Source: Dehalococcoidia bacterium (lineage in GTDB: Bacteria > Chloroflexota > Dehalococcoidia > UBA2979). From it: a DNA stretch of 64,000 bases. Below are positions 5,465-13,032 of this stretch, one piece after another. Position numbers and translations under genes: made by a program. The DNA lies in assembly GCA_041390685.1 (NCBI GenBank), contig JAWKPL010000001.1, positions 556,141-620,140 on the forward strand, read 5' to 3'. The notes under the pieces are model-generated. The model saw only the letters and a program-made list of their open reading frames with translations, did not search any database and was not told the DNA's origin. Each line of letters starts with the position of its first letter. Position 1 is the stretch's first letter.

Positions 5465-5875
5465 CTAGGGCGCGACCACCTTCAACCAGAGCGTAAGCGC
5501 TCTCGCGTCGTCCGGCGTGAGGGACGCGGTCTTCGACCACGCCGGCATTGCGGTGCCGGAGCGACCGTTGAGAATCGTGTCCTCGTAGACGGCGTTGTCC
5601 CTGGTGAGTTTCTTCGGCGTCAACTCGGGGCCGACTCCACCCTGACGCTTCGCGCCGTGGCAGGCCGAGCAGTTGGCCTGGAAGAACTCAGCGACCGGCT
5701 GACCTTTGACTTTGCCCTCGGCGGCTGCAGCGGCCTCAGCGCTCGTGACGGTGGTGGTCGCGGCGGCGTCGCCACCCGACTCCTCGTCCGACCCACTGGA
5801 GCATGCGGCTGCGATGAGTGTGAGGAGGGCGAGACTCAGCGCGAGCAGCGATGCGCGCGTCGTTGAAGCACTCAT
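5465..5875 (-). CDS. c-type cytochrome, probable lipoprotein (~136 aa)
   Basis: Signal peptide ending in the lipobox-like 'LIAAAC', heme-binding 'CSACHG', and a Met ligand region. Start taken at the internal M8 ('MSASTTRASLL'). Confidence 0.7.
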   Translation of the reverse strand: MSASTTRASLLALSLALLTLIAAACSSGSDEESGGDAAATTTVTSAEAAAAAEGKVKGQPVAEFFQANCSACHGAKRQGGVGPELTPKKLTRDNAVYEDTILNGRSGTAMPAWSKTASLTPDDARALTLWLKVVAP

Positions 5876-6016
5876 GGTGCTGTTCCTTTCGCTCAAGGTG
5901 TGGAACGAGATCAGGGCGCCGCGCCGCCCTCGTGCCGTCGTTCCAAGGCGGCTCGCGAGGTCGTGCCTCGAGGGCTGGGACCAGAACGGAGCGGCAAGTG
6001 CTCGCGGCGCCGGCGA

Positions 6017-6583
6017 CTACGCCTTCGGCGGCGGGTCAGGGGCGGAGGTGAGCCAGGAAACGAGCGACCGATCGGGGCAGGTGGACGCGGCGATCCACGG
6101 GGATGAGAGCGGGGGCGCGACCGGAGGTTCGGGTACCAGCATGGACACCGAGAGCAGCGTCTGGTCGAACGTGAACACGACATCCTGGCGCGCGGCGGCA
6201 GCGGCTGTGTCGTCCTCGATGGCCGCGCCGGAAGCTTCGCCGGAGGGGGCAGGCACGATGCCATCGGGGTGCAGCTCGCAGAGGTGGAAGACCGGCGCGG
6301 CCGCAGGCGCGGGGCCTGGCGCTTGCTCCCACGGGTGTGTGTGCGGGACCGGCACGCCACCGGCGTAGATGTGGCCGTGCGACGCAGACCAGCCGGCGAG
6401 CCCGGGCGACAGCGGGGTGAGGATGGGGAGGAAGAGCGAGGCCACGGCCGCGAACGCGAGCAAGCGCGCGACCGGAGCGTTTGTGAACCGTGTAACGAAC
6501 CCGTACACGACCGCAGTATGGGCGGGCGGACGGCGGCGTTCAACGGGGCGGCCGCCCCTGGAACGCAGGAGGCCGTGCGTCAC
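6017..6583 (-). CDS. Hypothetical membrane-anchored protein with His motifs (HGH, HTH, HLCELH)
   Basis: ORF with strong GC3 bias. One TM segment 'VARLLAFAAVASLFLPILTPL' followed by a Pro/Ala-rich region. No family recognised and the start is uncertain. Confidence 0.4.
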   Translation of the reverse strand: MTHGLLRSRGGRPVERRRPPAHTAVVYGFVTRFTNAPVARLLAFAAVASLFLPILTPLSPGLAGWSASHGHIYAGGVPVPHTHPWEQAPGPAPAAAPVFHLCELHPDGIVPAPSGEASGAAIEDDTAAAAARQDVVFTFDQTLLSVSMLVPEPPVAPPLSSPWIAASTCPDRSLVSWLTSAPDPPPKA

Positions 6584-6671: not shown

Positions 6672-7400
6672 TCAGAGCGGGTCGTCGCCCGCCGCTGCGC
6701 GGAGGCCCGCTACGTCTTGGATCTGAATGGTGTTGCGAGAGAGGGAGAGGAGCCCGCGGTCTCGGAAGTCGCCGAGCGCCCGGGTCACGGTCTCGCGGTG
6801 GGTGCCGACCGTCTCGGCGAGTTCCTGGTGGGTCATCGACAGACGGTCGCCGCGCTGCTCCCAGGCGCGGACGAGGGCGGCGGCGACTCGGGACGGGACA
6901 TCGCGGAGGGTGCTCTCCTCGAGGCGCGCTTCGAGGTCGACGAGGCGTCCGGCGAGGATCTGGACGAGGCGGATGCCGATGACCGGATAGGCGGCGATGA
7001 GGCCCTCGATGTCGCTGGGGCTCATGACGCAGATCGTTGAGTCCTCGGTGGCCTCGGCGTAGCCGCCGAGCATGCGGTTGCCGGTGAAGGACATATTGCC
7101 GAAGGCAGTGCCAGGGAGGACGGTGCCGATGGTGAGCTTGCGGCCGTCGGCGGCGAGCCGGTAGATCTGAATGCGACCCTGTTTCAGCAAAAACAGCGCC
7201 TCTGACGCGATACCGGGCTCATAGACGGTGCGGCCGGCGGGACAGGTGGTCATGACGGTCATCTGGTCGACCTGGCGCATTTGCTCCTCGGAGAGGTCGC
7301 GGAAGAGGTCGGAGGCGCTGAGGAGTCCGAGCTTGCTTTCGAGCGAGCGGGCGGGCCGGGGAGCGGCGGCCGGCGGGGGTTCACGGCGAAACAGCTTCAT
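6672..7400 (-). CDS. Crp/Fnr family transcriptional regulator
   Basis: 242 aa with a cNMP-binding-like beta-roll and C-terminal HTH ('THQELAETVGTHRETVTRALGDF'). Its start overlaps the upstream thioredoxin stop (ATGA). Confidence 0.8.
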   Translation of the reverse strand: MKLFRREPPPAAAPRPARSLESKLGLLSASDLFRDLSEEQMRQVDQMTVMTTCPAGRTVYEPGIASEALFLLKQGRIQIYRLAADGRKLTIGTVLPGTAFGNMSFTGNRMLGGYAEATEDSTICVMSPSDIEGLIAAYPVIGIRLVQILAGRLVDLEARLEESTLRDVPSRVAAALVRAWEQRGDRLSMTHQELAETVGTHRETVTRALGDFRDRGLLSLSRNTIQIQDVAGLRAAAGDDPL

Positions 7401-7657
7401 GCCGGGCCCCCGGCCAGACGGATGGCCGCCTCGAGGTCGGCGAGCCTCGGGTTGCCGAGGGAGACGACGCGGCCGTTGAGGATGTAGGTGGGCACCGCCG
7501 CGACGAGGTGGCGGTGTGCTCCCTGGTCGCCGCGGGCGTACACGAGCGTCACCGTCACCTCCGGGTGCTCCGCTTCCACCTGGCGGGCGAGGGCGGCGGC
7601 CCGCTGGCAGGTGGCGCAGCCTTCGTCCACGTAGACCTCGAGCTCAATGGTATCCAT
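7397..7657 (-). CDS. Small thioredoxin/glutaredoxin-like protein (CATC active site)
   Basis: 86 aa, 'VYVDEGCATCQRA...PTYILNGRVV' fits the thioredoxin fold. Confidence 0.7.
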   Translation of the reverse strand: MDTIELEVYVDEGCATCQRAAALARQVEAEHPEVTVTLVYARGDQGAHRHLVAAVPTYILNGRVVSLGNPRLADLEAAIRLAGGPA

Positions 7658-7663
7658 CGGCGG

Positions 7664-8461
7664 TCAGACCCGGCTTGGCAGCTGGAAGGTGCGGTCGAGG
7701 AAGGGGATGCGGGCGAGGCGGCTCATGTGGAGTCCGAAGACCACGAGCAGCAATCCTCCGGCGCGGGTGAAGGTATCGAGGTGCGGCCCGATGGCAGAGC
7801 CGGCGAGTCCGGAGAGGGCGCCGAGAATGGTGAAGACGAGGGCGAAGCCCGCGACGAAGACGGCGGCATGCCGCAGCATGTGCCGCCTCTGCGCCGCAGT
7901 CTCCTCACCGGGGCGGACGACCTCGCCGGTGAGGGTGGCGAGGTACACGGGGACGAGCGGGAGCACGCAGGGGGAGAGGAAGGAGAGCATGCCGCCGAGG
8001 AAGGCGACGCCGAAGCCGAGCCAGCCCCCGAGGCCGGCGACCGCGCGCTGCTCGGCATCAGCCGCCTGGCCGAAGGCGAAGCCGTAGGCGAGGAAGTATT
8101 CGTTGAGGCGGGCGAATTGCCCGGTGAGAAGGGCGATGCCGACGAGGATGAACAGGACGCCTCCGGCCACCGTGAGCCAGGGCAGGTACGGCTGCGCCTG
8201 ACGCAGGCGAGGCATGAGGGAACCGAACGCGGCTCCGATGGCAAGGAACCACCCCCCGAGCCCGAGTGCGTAGGCGAGCAACAGCACCGCGCCCTGCGCC
8301 GCCGTGCCAGAGGTGGCGGCCAGAGTGAGGATGCCCGCGAGGATGGGGCCGATGCAGGGCGACCATGCGACTGCGAACGTGGCCCCGACCGCGGCAGAGC
8401 GGGGGTAGCCGCCGAGCGCGGACCGCCAGGCCGGACGCTGACCGAGCGCGGGGTCCGTCAT
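7664..8461 (-). CDS. ccdA: Cytochrome c biogenesis / DsbD-family transmembrane electron transporter CcdA, permuted domain order
   Basis: 265 aa. 'WSPCIGPIL' (canonical TM4 motif) lies in the N-terminal half and 'FLSPCVLPLVPVYLA' (canonical TM1 motif) in the C-terminal half. The ATG overlaps the stop of the upstream ResA-like gene (ATGA). Confidence 0.8.
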   Translation of the reverse strand: MTDPALGQRPAWRSALGGYPRSAAVGATFAVAWSPCIGPILAGILTLAATSGTAAQGAVLLLAYALGLGGWFLAIGAAFGSLMPRLRQAQPYLPWLTVAGGVLFILVGIALLTGQFARLNEYFLAYGFAFGQAADAEQRAVAGLGGWLGFGVAFLGGMLSFLSPCVLPLVPVYLATLTGEVVRPGEETAAQRRHMLRHAAVFVAGFALVFTILGALSGLAGSAIGPHLDTFTRAGGLLLVVFGLHMSRLARIPFLDRTFQLPSRV

Positions 8462-8967
8462 GAGGCCTGTTGCAGCGCGGCCTCGATGGCACCGGAGAAC
8501 TGGGCGGCGGAGGGCTGATAGAAGAAGCGCGTCACCTCGCGGCCTGCGCCATCGAGGAGGACGAACGTGGGGGTGCCTCGTACCGCGTACTTCGACGATG
8601 CGCCGCGGTCGCGGTTCGCCTCCTTTTCGACGAAGCGCATGCGGTCTCGGAACCCGGCGGCGGTCTGGTGCGCGAAGGGCTCCATCTGCGCGCAGAACTC
8701 GCAGGAGGTGCCAGAGAACCAGACGAGGGTGGGGCGGCCGTCGGGCGAGGGGGCGTCCGCGCTGGGGAGCGGGTCCGGAGAGTGATAGACGGTGTGGTGC
8801 GAGCCCGAGTAGCGGACGACGGCGCCGCCGGCGTTCGCCTCCGCGGCCTCCTGCGTCGCAGCGCTGGCGGCTCCGCCGCCGCCTTCATCGGAGGAGCCAC
8901 CGAGCGCGTACACGCCGAGCGCGATGACGAGGGCGGCGACAGCGGCCAGCGGGAGCCAGCGGCGCAC
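8458..8967 (-). CDS. Membrane-anchored TlpA/ResA-like thiol:disulfide oxidoreductase (CEFC)
   Basis: Only the C-terminal 169 aa of track ORF 8458..9537 look real: TM anchor, 'WFSGTSCEFCAQ', thioredoxin fold. The upstream part is Arg-rich read-through. GTG start with GGGAG 7 nt upstream. Confidence 0.7.
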   Translation of the reverse strand: MRRWLPLAAVAALVIALGVYALGGSSDEGGGGAASAATQEAAEANAGGAVVRYSGSHHTVYHSPDPLPSADAPSPDGRPTLVWFSGTSCEFCAQMEPFAHQTAAGFRDRMRFVEKEANRDRGASSKYAVRGTPTFVLLDGAGREVTRFFYQPSAAQFSGAIEAALQQAS

Positions 8968-9143
8968 GAGCGGGCTCCCAGTTGACCTTCGTTTCTGCTG
9001 CTGCTTTGCCTGGCGGCGTCGCTCGCTGGGTGTCACCCTGCACCTCCCGTGGCGTATTTCGCTCGATGCTTCCCAACACAGGGCAGCACGCGGCGCGGGC
9101 CGCGGGCTGTGATCTGCGTCACGCAGGTCTCTTATCGGAAGCC

Positions 9144-9644
9144 TCAGCGGCGACGGGCGCCGCCGGTGAGCGCGAGCAGGAGTCCGGCCATCGCACCGAA
9201 CGCGAACGTGTGTGACACAAATTGCAGCGGCCGGTCGGCGTCGGTGAACCAGTCGCGGCCGGCGGCGGGAGCGAGGACGTAGAAGTTGACGAGCCAGATG
9301 ACAGCACCGTAGGCCATGGCCAGTGAGAGCGTGCCGTAGAGGGAGCCCCGAGCGGCGGGAACGACCTCGATGAGCGCGGCGAGCGCCACCCCGAGCATCA
9401 TCGACACCATCATGTGGGTGACGAGGCCGAGGGGGATGGCGGCGGCGAGACCGATGTCTTCGGGCATCCTGCCGAGGGGCAGGGAGGCAATCATGCGCAG
9501 GGGCATCCAGAAGCCCATGCCGACGGCCGCGGACCACGTCATCGCGACCATGGCCATGGCCATCCCGGCTACGGCGCCGACGACGGCACCTCGGACTACG
9601 ACTGTGCTGGACTGTCGGGTGGCGACTTCGCTGACAGCAGACAC
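9144..9644 (-). CDS. Hypothetical integral membrane protein (4 TM)
   Basis: 166 aa hydrophobic ORF with coding-like composition. No family assigned. Confidence 0.45.
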   Translation of the reverse strand: MSAVSEVATRQSSTVVVRGAVVGAVAGMAMAMVAMTWSAAVGMGFWMPLRMIASLPLGRMPEDIGLAAAIPLGLVTHMMVSMMLGVALAALIEVVPAARGSLYGTLSLAMAYGAVIWLVNFYVLAPAAGRDWFTDADRPLQFVSHTFAFGAMAGLLLALTGGARRR

Positions 9645-9755
9645 CGCGGGGCTCCTCTCTCCTCGTCCGTTGGTCTCCCGAAGCTAGGAGCCGCCAGCCG
9701 CGGCGACAGTGACGGCGGTCACCGGCAGCCGTGATCTCGCGGGCATGAGAGCGAC

Positions 9756-10532
9756 TCAGTCGCCGGGCCGCAGCTCCCAGGTGCGGTAGAGGAGGGGCAC
9801 CCGGATCGCGCCCGCGAGGTTCAGCCCGAGCACGATGAGGAGGACGCCGGCGACCTTCTGGATCGTCGCGAGGTTGTCCTGCACGAGGTAGCCGACGACG
9901 CCGACGGAGGCGCCGATGAGCACGAAGACGACGGAGAAGCCGAACACAAAGGCGGCGGCGTGGCGGAGCGTGGCGAGGCGCTGCCGGCGCCCGGCGTCCT
10001 CGGCGGCGGTGACGCCGGCGAGGTGGCCGAGGTAGACGGGGACGAGCGGGAGGCAGCAGGGGGAGATGAAGGCGATGATGCCAGCCAGGAAGGCGGTGGC
10101 GAAGCCGAGCGGACCGCTGAGGCCCAGCCCCTCGATGGAACCTTCGGCCTCGACGACGGTGCGAGCGCCGGGGGCGAAGTACTGGTTGAACACGGTGAAG
10201 CGGTCGATGAAGACGAGGATGCCGACGAGGATCACGAGGACGCCGGCGACGCCCTCGATGGCGGGCAGCAGGGGGCGGACGCGGCGTGTGGCCGCCATCA
10301 GCTCACCGACGCCGAGGCCGGCGAGGAGGAAGGGGAGGCCGAGGCCGGCCGACCAGGCCATGAGCAGCGTGGCGCCATGGAGGACGGTACCCGAGGAGGC
10401 GGCGAGGAGGAGGATCGCGCCGAGGATGGGGCCGATGCACGGCGTCCATGCGACGGCGAAGCCGGCGCCGACGACGAACGAGCGGCCGTAGCGAGCGGGC
10501 GCGGGCAGAGCAGTGGTACGGATCCTCATGTG
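9756..10532 (-). CDS. ccdA: CcdA/DsbD-family transmembrane protein, second paralog, permuted domain order
   Basis: Start taken at the internal Met 'MRIRTTALPAPARYGRSF'. 'WTPCIGPIL' comes first, then 'FISPCCLPLVPVYLGHLAG' and TM2/TM3-like segments. Same permutation as the copy at 7664..8461. Confidence 0.8.
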   Translation of the reverse strand, partial: HMRIRTTALPAPARYGRSFVVGAGFAVAWTPCIGPILGAILLLAASSGTVLHGATLLMAWSAGLGLPFLLAGLGVGELMAATRRVRPLLPAIEGVAGVLVILVGILVFIDRFTVFNQYFAPGARTVVEAEGSIEGLGLSGPLGFATAFLAGIIAFISPCCLPLVPVYLGHLAGVTAAEDAGRRQRLATLRHAAAFVFGFSVVFVLIGASVGVVGYLVQDNLATIQKVAGVLLIVLGLNLAGAIRVPLLYRTWELRPGD

Positions 10533-10727
10533 CGGGGTGCCGGGGCTTCCATGACTCGCGGCCTCGCCTCCGCCTCGTGAGGGTCGCGCGGGCCGCCTAC
10601 GGCGCTCGGTGATCACGGTCACCAACGGCTGCGCGGACGTCCGCTAGCGTCATACGCTACATAGCAGGCGCGCGCATGACACGCGCGCCATTGAGGGACC
10701 CTGAGCGCCGAGGACGAACGGAGTGAC

Positions 10728-11699
10728 GTGGCCGTCGACGTGCGTCGCCTGCTGATCGTGATCGCCCTGGTCGCCGGGGGCGTGGCGGCGATGTGGGTGT
10801 TCGTCCTCGGGGACCCCGCGGACGAGGAGGCGGGCTTCACGGACGCGCAGATCGTGGAGGCGACGGCGGAGCCCTCGCGGGCGGTGCCGGTCGGGCTGCG
10901 GGACGGCGAGCAGGCGCCCGACTTCGAGATCTCGAGGATGGACGGGACGCGGGTCCGGCTGAGTGACTTTCGCGGACAGCCGGTGGTGATCAGCTTCTTC
11001 GCACTGTGGTGCGGGGGCTGCCTCGCGGAGATGCCCATACTCCAGTCCGCGCAGTCGGAGCGTGGCGTGGACCACTTCACGGTACTGGCGGTGAACGCGG
11101 GAGAGACACGGGAGCGGGCGCAGGAGTTCATCGACATCATCGACGCGCCATTCGTGTGGACGCTGGACTTCGACCTGACCGTGAGCGACGCCTACGGGGT
11201 GCACGGGCTGCCGCACACCGTGTTCATCGACGCGGAGGGTATCGTGCGCACGACGTACGCAGGGGCGACGAACCGCGTGCGCCTCGATACGTACCTTGAC
11301 GCCGTGGTGCGCGGGACCGAGCCGGCGCCGCTTCCCAACGAGCTGCGGTTCGTGACGAGGATCCCGCGGGACCACGTGCTGGACGTGGACGTGCGCGACG
11401 CTTCGACGGTCGTGCTGTCCTCGCGGCGGCTGCGGTGCGATGTCGCCTACTGCGCGGATTCGGTCTCCGAGGCGCTGCTGGGTACGGCGGGCGTGCTTGC
11501 CGTGAGCGCGGCGGCCGGACGAACGGCAGACGAATCCTCGCTGGAGGTCCGGTTCGACTCGGAGACCGTGACGGCGGAGGCACTGGTGGAGGCCGTCGTA
11601 GCGCTCCTCGACGGACTGCCGGACCCGCTGTTCCGGGGCGTCCCGCTGGTGGTGCGGACGGGCAGCGGGGACGCGGACGCGGAGCGGGAGACGGAGTGA
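10728..11699 (+). CDS. TlpA-like thioredoxin (WCGGC) with N-terminal TM anchor and an extra ~130 aa C-terminal domain containing CDVAYC
   Basis: 323 aa. Redoxin domain 'VVISFFALWCGGCLAEMP'. The C-terminal extension has no recognised family. GTG start. Confidence 0.7.
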   Translation: MAVDVRRLLIVIALVAGGVAAMWVFVLGDPADEEAGFTDAQIVEATAEPSRAVPVGLRDGEQAPDFEISRMDGTRVRLSDFRGQPVVISFFALWCGGCLAEMPILQSAQSERGVDHFTVLAVNAGETRERAQEFIDIIDAPFVWTLDFDLTVSDAYGVHGLPHTVFIDAEGIVRTTYAGATNRVRLDTYLDAVVRGTEPAPLPNELRFVTRIPRDHVLDVDVRDASTVVLSSRRLRCDVAYCADSVSEALLGTAGVLAVSAAAGRTADESSLEVRFDSETVTAEALVEAVVALLDGLPDPLFRGVPLVVRTGSGDADAERETE

Positions 11700-12298
11700 C
11701 GGCGGCCGAGCGGCGCGGCGGGGAGATCGACGAGCACCCAGGGACCGACCAGCTGCGCCGACGGCTGTCGCGCGCGCTGGCCGGAGGCGCCGGGGCGCTG
11801 CTCCTCGTGCTGGCCGTGCTGGGGCTGGGGGGCGTGTCCAGCGGGGGTACGCCTACGGCGGCACCTCCGTTCGAGCTCGAGTTGCTGGAGGGGGGCCGCG
11901 TGACGAACGCGGACCTCGCGGGTCGGGTGGCGGTGATCAACGTGTGGGCATCGTGGTGCCCGCCGTGCCGGGAGGAAGCGCCGGCGTTGCGGCGGACGGC
12001 GGAGCGCTTTGCCTCGGAGCCGGTGGTGTTCCTCGGGGTGGTCCGCGACGATAGCGCGGAGGAAGCGCTGGCGTTCGCGCGGGAGTGGGGGCTGTCGTAC
12101 GCGCACGCGATGGGGGATGAGGCCTTTCTGTCCGACTTCGGGGCGCGGGGCATCCCCATGACCTACGTCCTCGACGCGAACGGGGGCGTCCTGGTGCGGC
12201 ATTACGGGCCGATCTCCGAATCGAAGCTCACGGCACTGATCGAGGACGCGCTGTCGCGTCCGGCCGGGGTCAACGGTCCCGTTGAGGACGCCTCGTGA
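11696..12298 (+). CDS. TlpA-like thioredoxin (WCPPC), membrane anchored
   Basis: GTG start overlaps the upstream stop (GTGA). TM segment then 'VAVINVWASWCPPCREEAP'. The preceding 87 aa of the track ORF are Gly/Arg-rich read-through. Confidence 0.7.
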   Translation: MTAAERRGGEIDEHPGTDQLRRRLSRALAGGAGALLLVLAVLGLGGVSSGGTPTAAPPFELELLEGGRVTNADLAGRVAVINVWASWCPPCREEAPALRRTAERFASEPVVFLGVVRDDSAEEALAFAREWGLSYAHAMGDEAFLSDFGARGIPMTYVLDANGGVLVRHYGPISESKLTALIEDALSRPAGVNGPVEDAS

Positions 12299-13032
12299 GT
12301 GGGGTTGTGGAGTTCGTGCAGGTGCGGGGGGAGTACGTCTCCTTCTTTCTCGTGCTGGCGATGCTATGGGCCAGCGGCGGGACGATCGCCCGGCTGGTGG
12401 GGCTTCCTCGACGGGCGGTGGGGGACCTGACGTTCAACGGCGCGGTGGCCTTCGTGGCCGTGGGGCGGCTCGGCTACCTCGCGACCGAGGCGCCGCGATC
12501 ACTCCTCGACCCGCTGGTGGTGATCCGGTTCCAGGCGGGCATTGAGCCGCTCGTGGGAGCGGCGGCGGTCGCAGCCGTGGCCGCCTGGCAGACACGAGGC
12601 CAGGATGCCGTCGCGCGGTGGGGGGTCGCGGGGGCGGCCTCGATCGGGCTGGCGGTGGCGACGGTGGGGTACGACGTCACGTGCGTGGTGCGTGACGCCT
12701 GCTACGGGGCGGCGGCTCCCGCGCCATTCGGGTTCGAGATGTCGGGGCTCAGTGAGCCGCGGATCGCGACGCCGCTGGTGGAGGCAACGTTGCTGATGGC
12801 GGCGGGGGCGGTGCTGCTGCGGATCGGAGGGCGGCTCACGGTGGCGACGGCAGCGCTGCTGCTGGGGACGCTGGCGCTCACGCGGGCAGCGCTGACTCCG
12901 GCGTCGGCACTGGGGGTGGAGGCGGTGGGCCTCGAAACGGTGGTGCTCGTCGTGGTGGGGATCCTGGCGGTGGGGTGGGCGATCGTCCTCGGCGGGCGCG
13001 GTACAGCGGCGGTGGATGGGTCGGCAGGGTAG
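12295..13032 (+). CDS. Hypothetical polytopic membrane protein, translationally coupled to the two thioredoxins
   Basis: 245 aa, about 6 TM segments, CxxxxxC ('TCVVRDAC') in a loop. GTG start overlaps the upstream stop (GTGA). Could be a MauE/DoxX-like partner, but I do not recognise the family. Confidence 0.5.
   Translation: MSGVVEFVQVRGEYVSFFLVLAMLWASGGTIARLVGLPRRAVGDLTFNGAVAFVAVGRLGYLATEAPRSLLDPLVVIRFQAGIEPLVGAAAVAAVAAWQTRGQDAVARWGVAGAASIGLAVATVGYDVTCVVRDACYGAAAPAPFGFEMSGLSEPRIATPLVEATLLMAAGAVLLRIGGRLTVATAALLLGTLALTRAALTPASALGVEAVGLETVVLVVVGILAVGWAIVLGGRGTAAVDGSAG

What the first reader, a model, noticed from the sequence alone, without database searches (positions are those of the whole stretch)
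7664..10532. Two CcdA/DsbD-family paralogs with apparently circularly permuted transmembrane halves
In canonical CcdA (e.g. B. subtilis) and the DsbD beta domain, TM1-3 carry the 'SPCxLP' cysteine and TM4-6 carry 'WTPCxGP'. Here both paralogs run the other way: 'WSPCIGPIL'/'WTPCIGPIL' plus TM5/6-like helices come first, and 'FLSPCVLPLVPVY'/'FISPCCLPLVPVY' plus TM2/TM3-like helices come second. Each half aligns residue-by-residue to the opposite half of B. subtilis CcdA. The ATGA overlap with the upstream ResA-like gene fixes the N-terminus of copy 1, so the order is not a start-site artefact. DsbD-family proteins are built from an internal inverted repeat, so a half-swap could fold. Two diverged copies showing the same order argues it is a lineage feature and not an assembly error.
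Basis: partly seen in the sequence, partly recalled or inferred. Interest (0 to 1): 0.75.

Follow-up and report, generated by a model that had tools for sequence, protein, structure and literature searches.

The report
Circularly permuted CcdA membrane thiol reductases
Two neighbouring genes of a Dehalococcoidia (Chloroflexota) genome encode real CcdA-type membrane electron carriers whose two three-helix halves are in swapped order, a natural circular permutation of a multi-helix membrane protein that is shared by hundreds of relatives and that I could not find described.

Summary
Copy 1 (7664-8461, minus strand, 265 aa) and copy 2 (9756-10529, minus strand, 257 aa) are bona fide DsbD/CcdA-family proteins. 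In both, the TM4-5-6 half (W[ST]PCIGP) comes before the TM1-2-3 half (SPCxLP).

A profile built from 55 canonical CcdAs matches each protein in two pieces in reversed order. It matches the computationally un-permuted sequences in one full-length piece. Half-specific profiles score about 100-126 bits on the "wrong-order" half against 5-14 bits on the other.

All 240 closest database homologues, from many independent assemblies, have the same order, so this is not an artefact. Charge bias predicts N-in/C-in, with the new 21-29-residue linker outside, so every helix keeps its canonical orientation.

The genes sit among one cytoplasmic and three membrane-anchored thioredoxin-like genes and a c-type cytochrome. 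This fits the usual CcdA job, which is inferred here, not shown.

At 50% identity clustering the permuted clade is small: 6 full-length clusters among the best 150 representatives. Every named member is Chloroflexota.

I also found a second, different permutation (TM1 moved to the C-terminus) in Deinococcota, Chloroflexota and Eremiobacterota genomes and in one archaeal genome bin. My searches of the held papers found no description of either. Verdict: a new architectural variant of a known family.

The parts
7664..8461 (-). Copy 1: circularly permuted CcdA, 265 aa. Order is TM4 (WSPCIGP, Cys36), TM5, TM6, linker (about residues 118-146 between hydrophobic segments, with invariant Glu137), TM1 (SPCVLP, Cys165), TM2, TM3.
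   Evidence: Canonical profile positions 129-238 match residues 17-126, and positions 8-122 match residues 148-261.
9756..10529 (-). Copy 2: circularly permuted CcdA paralogue, 257 aa, 47% identical to copy 1 by tblastn (46% in alignment A1). Same helix order, with WTPCIGP followed later by SPCCLP.
8458..9036 (-). Membrane-anchored thioredoxin-fold protein, 192 aa, GTG start. It has an Arg/Lys-rich N-tail, one TM helix and a CEFC motif. Its stop codon overlaps the ATG of copy 1 (ATGA). Probable extracytoplasmic electron acceptor.
   Evidence: Pfam Thioredoxin_2 and Thioredoxin. Overlap shown. Same gene call in syntenic locus L086.
7397..7657 (-). Small thioredoxin-fold protein, 86 aa, CATC motif, no signal peptide or TM helix. 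Starts 6 nt after the copy 1 stop. Candidate cytoplasmic electron donor.
   Evidence: Pfam Thioredoxin_3, 35.6 bits. Conserved next to copy 1 in L086.
6672..7400 (-). Crp/Fnr-family regulator. Overlaps the Trx_3 gene by 4 nt and lies last in the apparent operon.
   Evidence: Pfam cNMP_binding, HTH_Crp_2 and Crp. Conserved in L086.
10728..11699 (+). TlpA/ResA-like redoxin, 323 aa. N-terminal TM anchor, WCGGC motif and a C-terminal extension of about 130 aa. Divergently transcribed from copy 2.
   Evidence: Pfam AhpC-TSA and Redoxin. Conserved in L086.
11696..12298 (+). Second TlpA-like redoxin, 200 aa, TM anchor, WCPPC motif. Overlaps the previous gene by 4 nt.
   Evidence: Pfam Redoxin and AhpC-TSA. 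Start taken from the L086 gene call.
5465..5896 (-). Mono-haem c-type cytochrome (CSACH) with a lipoprotein-like signal sequence. A possible end client of the reducing pathway.
   Evidence: Pfam Cytochrome_CBB3 and Cytochrom_C. Sequence.

Best explanation
Both genes encode functional members of the CcdA branch of the DsbD family whose polypeptide chain has been circularly permuted.

Architecture. The ancestral N- and C-termini, both on the outer face of the membrane, are joined by a new linker of 21-29 residues. New termini were opened in the cytoplasmic TM3-TM4 loop. The chain therefore runs TM4-TM5-TM6-linker-TM1-TM2-TM3, with both ends in the cytoplasm. Each helix keeps its canonical orientation, and the two catalytic cysteines (TM4 WxPCxGP and TM1 SPCxLP) are retained.

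Mechanism (inferred). The protein should work like canonical CcdA. The TM1/TM4 cysteine pair is reduced from the cytoplasmic side by a thioredoxin, possibly the adjacent 86-aa CATC protein. It is re-oxidised on the outer side by membrane-anchored thioredoxin-like proteins: the CEFC protein translationally coupled to copy 1, and the WCGGC and WCPPC TlpA-like pair next to copy 2. These in turn serve cytochrome c maturation or other extracytoplasmic reductions.

Origin (inferred). The likely route is the classical one: tandem duplication, in-frame fusion, then loss of the outer halves.

What is shown and what is inferred. Shown: the homology, the helix order, conservation of that order across the clade, the charge bias, and the gene neighbourhood. 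Inferred: the topology, the catalytic activity, the partners and the evolutionary route.
For: 1. Order.
- Pfam and PDB matches are non-collinear.
- A profile of 55 canonical CcdAs matches copy 1 as positions 129-238 then 8-122, and copy 2 as 123-236 then 8-122. Nothing is lost or duplicated.
- The in-silico un-permuted sequences give a single full-length match, positions 8-238 and 8-236.

2. Identity of the halves. Each half scores about 100-126 bits on its own half-profile and 5-14 bits on the other.

3. Not an artefact.
- The ATGA overlap fixes the N-terminus of copy 1.
- tblastn finds no other DsbD-like sequence in the window.
- All 240 best homologues have WxPC first.
- A syntenic MAG has the same two genes.

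4. Topology. Over 53 family members, mean K+R is 11.6 in the N-tail, the 5/6 loop, the 1/2 loop and the C-tail combined. It is 1.4 in the 4/5 loop, the linker and the 2/3 loop combined. Canonical CcdAs show the matching bias, 10.4 for loops 1/2, 3/4 and 5/6 against 3.4 for the rest.

6. Function.
- Both catalytic motifs are invariant in 122 sequences.
- Thioredoxin-fold neighbours surround both genes.
- A TlpA-like gene overlaps a permuted ccdA in an unrelated contig, L085.
Against: - No experiment bears on activity.
- The first AF2 model (copy 1, shallow alignment) was poor, with pLDDT 71 and implausibly long helices. Foldseek against the PDB was uninformative, with 5vkv at E 0.87.
- Two closely related contexts of the copy-1-type clade, loci L081 and L082/L083, have no thioredoxin-like neighbour. 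The partner assignment is therefore specific to this locus.
- Only 64 kb of the genome was available. I do not know whether a canonical ccdA or the haem-attachment genes resBC/ccsBA are also present.
- No tandem-duplicate intermediate was found among the 150 best representatives.
Confidence: 0.85

Rival explanations
1. Assembly or gene-calling artefact. Two tandem canonical ccdA genes, or one gene with a frameshift or misjoin, are read so that the C-half of one and the N-half of the next look like a single ORF.
For: Both halves are complete family halves, and permutations classically arise from tandem copies, so such a layout would look similar.
Against: - Each ORF is bounded by unrelated genes: a thioredoxin-like gene overlapping the start, and the Trx_3 gene 6 nt after the stop.
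- tblastn finds no further DsbD-like segment in the window.
- 240 of 240 homologues from NCBI, JGI, ENA and Logan assemblies have the same order and similar lengths of 242-299 aa.
- The linker is conserved, with an invariant Glu.
Confidence: 0.01
2. No permutation. Because the two halves of CcdA are homologous repeats, the halves have simply exchanged their diagnostic motifs by point mutation (convergence), and the chain is collinear with canonical CcdA.
For: The halves are distant internal repeats. Cross-half profile matches are detectable at 5-14 bits.
Against: Half-specific profiles discriminate by about 90-120 bits over the whole length of each half, not only at the motifs. The un-permuted sequences give one continuous match, profile positions 8-238 for copy 1 and 8-236 for copy 2.
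Confidence: 0.01
3. Inverted-topology variant. The swapped protein inserts N-out/C-out, so each half is flipped in the membrane relative to canonical CcdA. It exploits the pseudo-two-fold symmetry of the fold, perhaps with reversed donor and acceptor faces.
Against: The positive-inside bias is strong and points the other way: K+R 11.6 against 1.4 for N-in/C-in. The same loops (1/2 and 5/6) are K/R-rich in canonical CcdA. The N-tail carries 3.9 K+R on average and there is no signal sequence.
Confidence: 0.04
4. The permuted clade has left the reductive CcdA function. It might be a transporter of another substrate (some members are named TauE/SafE sulfite exporter) or a carrier of oxidising rather than reducing equivalents.
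For: - Some members carry the NCBI name 'sulfite exporter TauE/SafE family protein'.
- Copy-1-type relatives in loci L081 and L082/L083 lack thioredoxin-like neighbours.
- The DsbD family belongs to a superfamily of small exporters (PMC4608589).
Against: - Both redox cysteines and their Pro/Gly motifs are invariant in 122 sequences.
- Pfam's best hits are DsbD_TM and DsbD_2, not TauE.
- In this window both copies are embedded among four thioredoxin-fold genes, and L085 repeats the TlpA-ccdA overlap.
Confidence: 0.07

Closest known systems
CcdA (T. thermophilus 5VKV; B. subtilis and R. capsulatus CcdA), the six-helix membrane thiol-disulfide electron transporter
   Same: Clear homologue: about 96-98 bits to 5VKV, and 211 and 233 bits to a canonical profile. 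Both catalytic motifs, the six hydrophobic segments, the loop charge pattern and the thioredoxin-like neighbours are shared.
   Different: The chain order is TM4-5-6-linker-TM1-2-3 instead of TM1-6. The termini are predicted to be cytoplasmic instead of external. The cytoplasmic TM3-TM4 loop is cut. A new external linker carries an invariant Glu.
DsbD / ScsB beta domain
   Same: Same superfamily core and the same two membrane cysteines (NCBIfam DsbD subfamily hits in two stretches).
   Different: DsbD and ScsB have eight helices and periplasmic alpha and gamma domains fused to external termini (PMC3322552). The permuted proteins have no external termini to fuse to and are stand-alone.
S. pneumoniae CcdA1/Etrx1 and CcdA2/Etrx2 (PMC3914529; listed, not read in detail)
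   Same: Two CcdA paralogues in one genome, each beside its own surface thioredoxin-like acceptor. This is the arrangement seen here. (The pneumococcal layout is recalled from the literature, not tested here.)
   Different: The pneumococcal CcdAs are, to my knowledge, collinear.
DsbB / VKOR circular permutation (PMC4555120)
   Same: It is also a membrane thiol-redox family in which two groups differ by circular permutation of the helix order (ABCD against CDAB). [quoted passage not shown]
   Different: That relation is inferred from structure between very distant families. Here the permuted and canonical forms are alignable at the sequence level, with E around 1e-33 to 1e-41 per half, and coexist within one class of bacteria.
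'Type B' permuted CcdA found here (TM2-3-4-5-6-linker-TM1)
   Same: It has the same TM6-to-TM1 junction, a linker of similar length and often a similar Glu motif.
   Different: The cut is in the TM1-TM2 loop, so only TM1 is moved. It is found in Deinococcota, Anaerolineae and other Chloroflexota, Eremiobacterota and a Woesearchaeota genome bin.

Membership tests
DsbD/CcdA family (Pfam PF02683 DsbD_TM) | Significant match to the family profile above the curated cut-off | tested here: met
   74.2 bits for copy 1 and 59.7 bits for copy 2, against a cut-off of 27.1. 211 and 233 bits to a profile of 55 canonical CcdAs.
DsbD/CcdA family | Two membrane-embedded catalytic cysteines in the motifs SPCxLP (TM1) and W[ST]PCxGP (TM4) | tested here: met
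   Copy 1 has Cys165 and Cys36. Copy 2 has SPCCLP and WTPCIGP. Both motifs are invariant in 122 relatives.
DsbD/CcdA family | Six transmembrane helices made of two homologous three-helix repeats | tested here: met
   Six hydrophobic segments. Each half matches one half-profile strongly and the other weakly. The AF2 helices are consistent with this.
Canonical CcdA architecture | Collinear order TM1-3 then TM4-6, with both termini outside the cytoplasm | tested here: not met
   The order is reversed. The positive-inside bias places both termini in the cytoplasm. These proteins are therefore members by homology but an architectural variant.
Canonical CcdA architecture | CcdA-like three-dimensional fold (O-shaped scaffold with TM1 and TM4 in the centre) | tested here: inconclusive
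   [not shown]
CcdA function | Genomic association with an exported thioredoxin-like acceptor (ResA/CcmG/TlpA type) | tested here: met
   A CEFC thioredoxin-like gene overlaps copy 1, and a TlpA-like pair is divergent from copy 2. The same layout occurs in L086, and a TlpA-ccdA overlap occurs in L085. It is absent in L081 and L082/L083.
CcdA function | Thioredoxin-dependent transfer of reducing equivalents across the membrane | not testable with these tools
   Requires genetics and biochemistry.

The most novel reading that the evidence does not exclude
The CcdA scaffold has been circularly permuted in nature at least twice, at two different cytoplasmic loops. Type A is cut in the TM3/TM4 loop and type B in the TM1/TM2 loop. 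Both may descend from one fused tandem-duplicate ancestor, because they share the TM6-to-TM1 junction and a similar Glu-containing linker.

If so, this would be the clearest sequence-level series of natural circular permutations in a multi-helix alpha-helical membrane protein. It would also be a ready-made natural test of the proposed elevator mechanism. In type A the mobile helix TM4 is freed from its cytoplasmic tether, and in type B the mobile helix TM1 is freed from its own.
Probability: 0.45. Interest if true: 0.7.

Novelty: new variant of a known kind. Interest (0 to 1): 0.55.

Why it matters
Natural circular permutation is well documented for soluble proteins but rarely for multi-helix membrane proteins. 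The DsbB/VKOR case was presented in 2015 as the first, and it rests on structure alone (PMC4555120).

Here the permuted and canonical forms are unambiguously alignable and occur in related organisms. This gives four practical points.

1. It shows that the CcdA fold and its membrane insertion tolerate cutting the cytoplasmic TM3-TM4 loop, and in type B the TM1-TM2 loop, when the external termini are joined.
2. It offers natural constructs to test the elevator model of CcdA, in which TM1 and TM4 move inside a TM2/3/5/6 scaffold (PMC7329351).
3. It explains inconsistent database names for these proteins, such as CcdA, hypothetical protein and TauE/SafE. It also warns that collinear HMM-coverage rules will mis-handle them.
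4. It moves both termini to the cytoplasm. That forbids DsbD-like fusion to periplasmic domains but would permit fusion to cytoplasmic partners.

The function itself is probably ordinary.

Tried and rejected
- AF2 on copy 1 with a 53-sequence, low-diversity alignment gave a poor model (pLDDT 71, with 60-residue 'helices'). Foldseek against the PDB was uninformative. A second model, of copy 2 with 122 sequences, was better.
- The afdb50 fold library was not available.
- The look-up of encoding contigs could not find P0001 or P0060, so the rest of the 2.6-Mb source contig could not be examined.
Its 'query residues matched' column merges out-of-order segments, so it cannot be used to call the order. 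I re-derived the order from motifs and profile coordinates.
- A neighbour-joining tree of un-permuted sequences was too poorly resolved to decide between a single and multiple origins. Type A did not come out cleanly monophyletic, type B was scattered, and no bootstraps were run.
- P0514 (373 aa) looked like a possible duplication intermediate. It is a type B protein with unrelated extra C-terminal helices.
- Text searches combining 'circular permutation', 'circularly permuted' or 'permuted' with CcdA or DsbD found nothing relevant, and the LysE-superfamily paper does not mention permutation. Two key subscription papers, Zhou & Bushweller 2018 and Bushweller 2020, are not held. Absence from the literature is therefore not proven.
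Full report
**What is there.** The window has about 70% G+C. It matches a 2.6-Mb contig of a Dehalococcoidia (Chloroflexota) metagenome-assembled genome, in which P0001 is 100% identical to copy 1. On the minus strand lie two ORFs.
- Copy 1 is 7664-8461, 265 aa.
- Copy 2 is 9756-10529, 257 aa. The ORF extends upstream to a TTG at 10625.
- The two are 47% identical.
- The ATG of copy 1 overlaps the TGA of the upstream gene as ATGA.

**The order of the halves is reversed.**
- Pfam DsbD_TM matches both proteins above its cut-off, but in two stretches. The C-terminal part of each protein lies on the N-terminal part of the profile. DsbD_2 puts copy 1 residues 22-109 on profile positions 121-198 of 199.
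- Against the solved T. thermophilus CcdA (5VKV), copy 1 residues 150-249 align to CcdA 5-93 and residues 6-125 to CcdA 91-212. Copy 2 does the same.
- From the genome loci fetched I extracted 58 canonical CcdAs, in which SPCxxP precedes WxPCxGP. I built a profile from the 55 of them shorter than 260 aa.
- That profile matches copy 1 as positions 129-238 (residues 17-126) followed by positions 8-122 (residues 148-261). Copy 2 behaves likewise.
- When the sequences are cut in the linker and rejoined in canonical order, each gives one continuous match, positions 8-238 and 8-236.
- Half-specific profiles exclude a mere exchange of motifs between the homologous repeats. The N-halves score 104.8 and 126.3 bits on the TM4-6 profile against 14.3 and 7.1 bits on TM1-3. 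The C-halves score 119.8 and 118.2 bits on TM1-3 against 4.6 and 10.2 bits on TM4-6.

**It is not an artefact.**
- No other DsbD-like segment exists in the window, and each ORF is flanked by unrelated genes.
- All 120 best homologues of copy 1 (52-64% identity, at least 90% coverage) have WxPC before SPC. So do all 120 best homologues of copy 2 (58-92% identity). They come from NCBI, JGI, ENA and Logan assemblies.
- A third paralogue, P0060, is on the same contig.
- A related MAG (L086) has the same gene order around both copies.

**How large the clade is.** In the library of 50%-identity representatives, 8704 proteins match at E of 1e-3 or better. Among the 150 best:
- 6 full-length clusters (P0056, P0123, P0126, P0132, P0133, P0175) and 3 fragments have this order, which I call type A;
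- 7 have a different permutation;
- the rest are canonical.

Named type A members are all Chloroflexota or Dehalococcoidia.

**Topology.** Copy 1 has six hydrophobic segments. Mean K+R over 53 family members is as follows.

| Region | Mean K+R |
|---|---|
| N-tail | 3.9 |
| TM5/6 loop | 2.6 |
| TM1/2 loop | 3.2 |
| C-tail | 1.9 |
| TM4/5 loop | 0 |
| Linker | 1.3 |
| TM2/3 loop | 0.1 |

- The first four regions sum to 11.6 and the last three to 1.4.
- Canonical CcdAs have the matching pattern. Loops 1/2, 3/4 and 5/6 are K/R-rich, and the termini and loops 2/3 and 4/5 are poor.
- So the permutation keeps every helix in its usual orientation. The old external termini are joined, and the cytoplasmic 3/4 loop is opened into two cytoplasmic tails.
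- The part of copy 1 between the two profile matches is 21 residues (127-147). The profile has 7 positions before position 8 and 8 after position 238, so 15 of those residues could come from the former termini. That is about the length expected if two tandem copies were fused end to start (inference).
- The linker contains a Glu that is invariant in 122 sequences spanning both paralogue clades: E137 in copy 1 and E129 in copy 2.

**Structure.**
- The first AF2 model (copy 1) was poor, and Foldseek was uninformative.
- A deeper alignment gave a copy 2 model with pLDDT 81.8 and pTM 0.78.
- 171 residues is more than one half, so the sequential superposition must run through the internal pseudo-symmetry.
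- This is compatible with a CcdA-like fold but is not decisive, because unrelated transporters score similarly.

**Context and likely function.** Downstream on the minus strand the genes run as follows.
- Copy 2.
- A 166-aa hydrophobic ORF.
- A 192-aa membrane-anchored thioredoxin-fold protein (CEFC).
- Copy 1.
- An 86-aa signal-less thioredoxin-fold protein (CATC).
- A Crp/Fnr regulator.
- A 188-aa ORF.
- A lipoprotein-type cytochrome c (CSACH).
- Lgt, the prolipoprotein diacylglyceryl transferase.

Divergent from copy 2 are two TlpA-like redoxins (WCGGC and WCPPC) and a 245-aa membrane protein, all with 4-nt overlaps.

Another contig, L085, has a TlpA-like gene overlapping a permuted ccdA. 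Loci L081 and L082/L083 have no such neighbours.

The best-supported function is the ordinary CcdA one: passing reducing equivalents from a cytoplasmic thioredoxin to exported thioredoxin-like proteins through the TM1/TM4 cysteine pair. The mechanism as reviewed is an elevator-like movement of TM1 and TM4 within a TM2/3/5/6 scaffold (PMC7329351). This function is inferred, not shown.

**A second permutation.** Among the related loci and representatives are proteins with the order TM2-3-4-5-6-linker-TM1. In these, profile positions of about 52-238 are followed by about 5-45. They have proper starts at TM2 and stops after TM1.
- They occur in Trueperaceae and Deinococcales, Anaerolineae and other Chloroflexota, Dehalococcoidia, Eremiobacterota and one Woesearchaeota genome bin.
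- 98 of the 120 best homologues of the Trueperaceae protein have this order.
- Many carry a similar Glu motif in the linker. This hints at a common fused ancestor with type A.
- The neighbour-joining tree cannot settle that question.

**Is it known?** Full-text searches combining circular permutation or permuted with CcdA or DsbD found nothing relevant. The LysE/DsbD superfamily analysis does not mention permutation. The DsbB/VKOR permutation was presented in 2015 as the first for alpha-helical membrane protein families. Databases simply call these proteins CcdA, hypothetical protein or TauE/SafE family. Two key subscription papers were not available, so I cannot exclude a prior mention.

**Verdict.** The observation and the interpretation are both correct. 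This is a real circular permutation, conserved across a lineage, of a known membrane redox protein, probably with unchanged function. It is a new architectural variant rather than a new kind of system. It is of moderate to good interest for membrane-protein evolution and for mechanistic work on CcdA. The interest is raised by the second, independent cut point found in other phyla.

Noticed in passing
L002:5731-6486 (+), L024, L046, L003, L005, L006; proteins P0121, P0138, P0142, P0163, P0168, P0219, P0265, P0431-P0530: A second, different circular permutation of CcdA. The order is TM2-3-4-5-6-linker-TM1, so only TM1 with its SPCxLP cysteine is moved to the C-terminus. It occurs in Deinococcota (Trueperaceae), Anaerolineae and other Chloroflexota, Dehalococcoidia, Eremiobacterota and a Woesearchaeota genome bin. 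98 of the 120 best hits to the Trueperaceae protein have it.
   Followed up: partly
window 8020-8110 (-) (copy 1 linker, residues 118-146); copy 2 residues about 120-140: The newly created TM6-to-TM1 linker has a Glu that is invariant in 122 type A sequences. A similar 'hydrophobic-E-x-x-hydrophobic' motif appears in most type B linkers. This suggests a shared origin or a structural role for the linker.
   Followed up: partly
window 9144-9644 (-): A 166-aa hydrophobic ORF with GC3 0.85 and no Pfam match lies between copy 2 and the thioredoxin-like gene. The syntenic MAG locus L086 has only a 270-nt gap at this position, so it is a lineage-specific insertion or loss.
   Followed up: no
window 12295-13032 (+): A 245-aa multi-helix membrane protein with no Pfam match. 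It overlaps the second TlpA-like gene by 4 nt and is conserved in L086, and it has a Cys pair (DVTCVVRDAC). It may be a further component of the extracytoplasmic thiol system.
   Followed up: no
window 6017-6583 (-): A 188-aa ORF without a Pfam match lies between the Crp/Fnr regulator and the cytochrome c gene.
   Followed up: no
database names of P0006, P0054, P0058, P0439: NCBI names some permuted CcdAs 'sulfite exporter TauE/SafE family protein', and names others CcdA or hypothetical protein. The non-collinear architecture probably confuses rule-based naming.
   Followed up: no
window 1-64000: GC skew (G-C)/(G+C) is positive in every 2-kb bin of the window, from 0.03 to 0.23, so the whole window lies on one replichore-like skew regime.
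   Followed up: no
[not shown]
   Followed up: no
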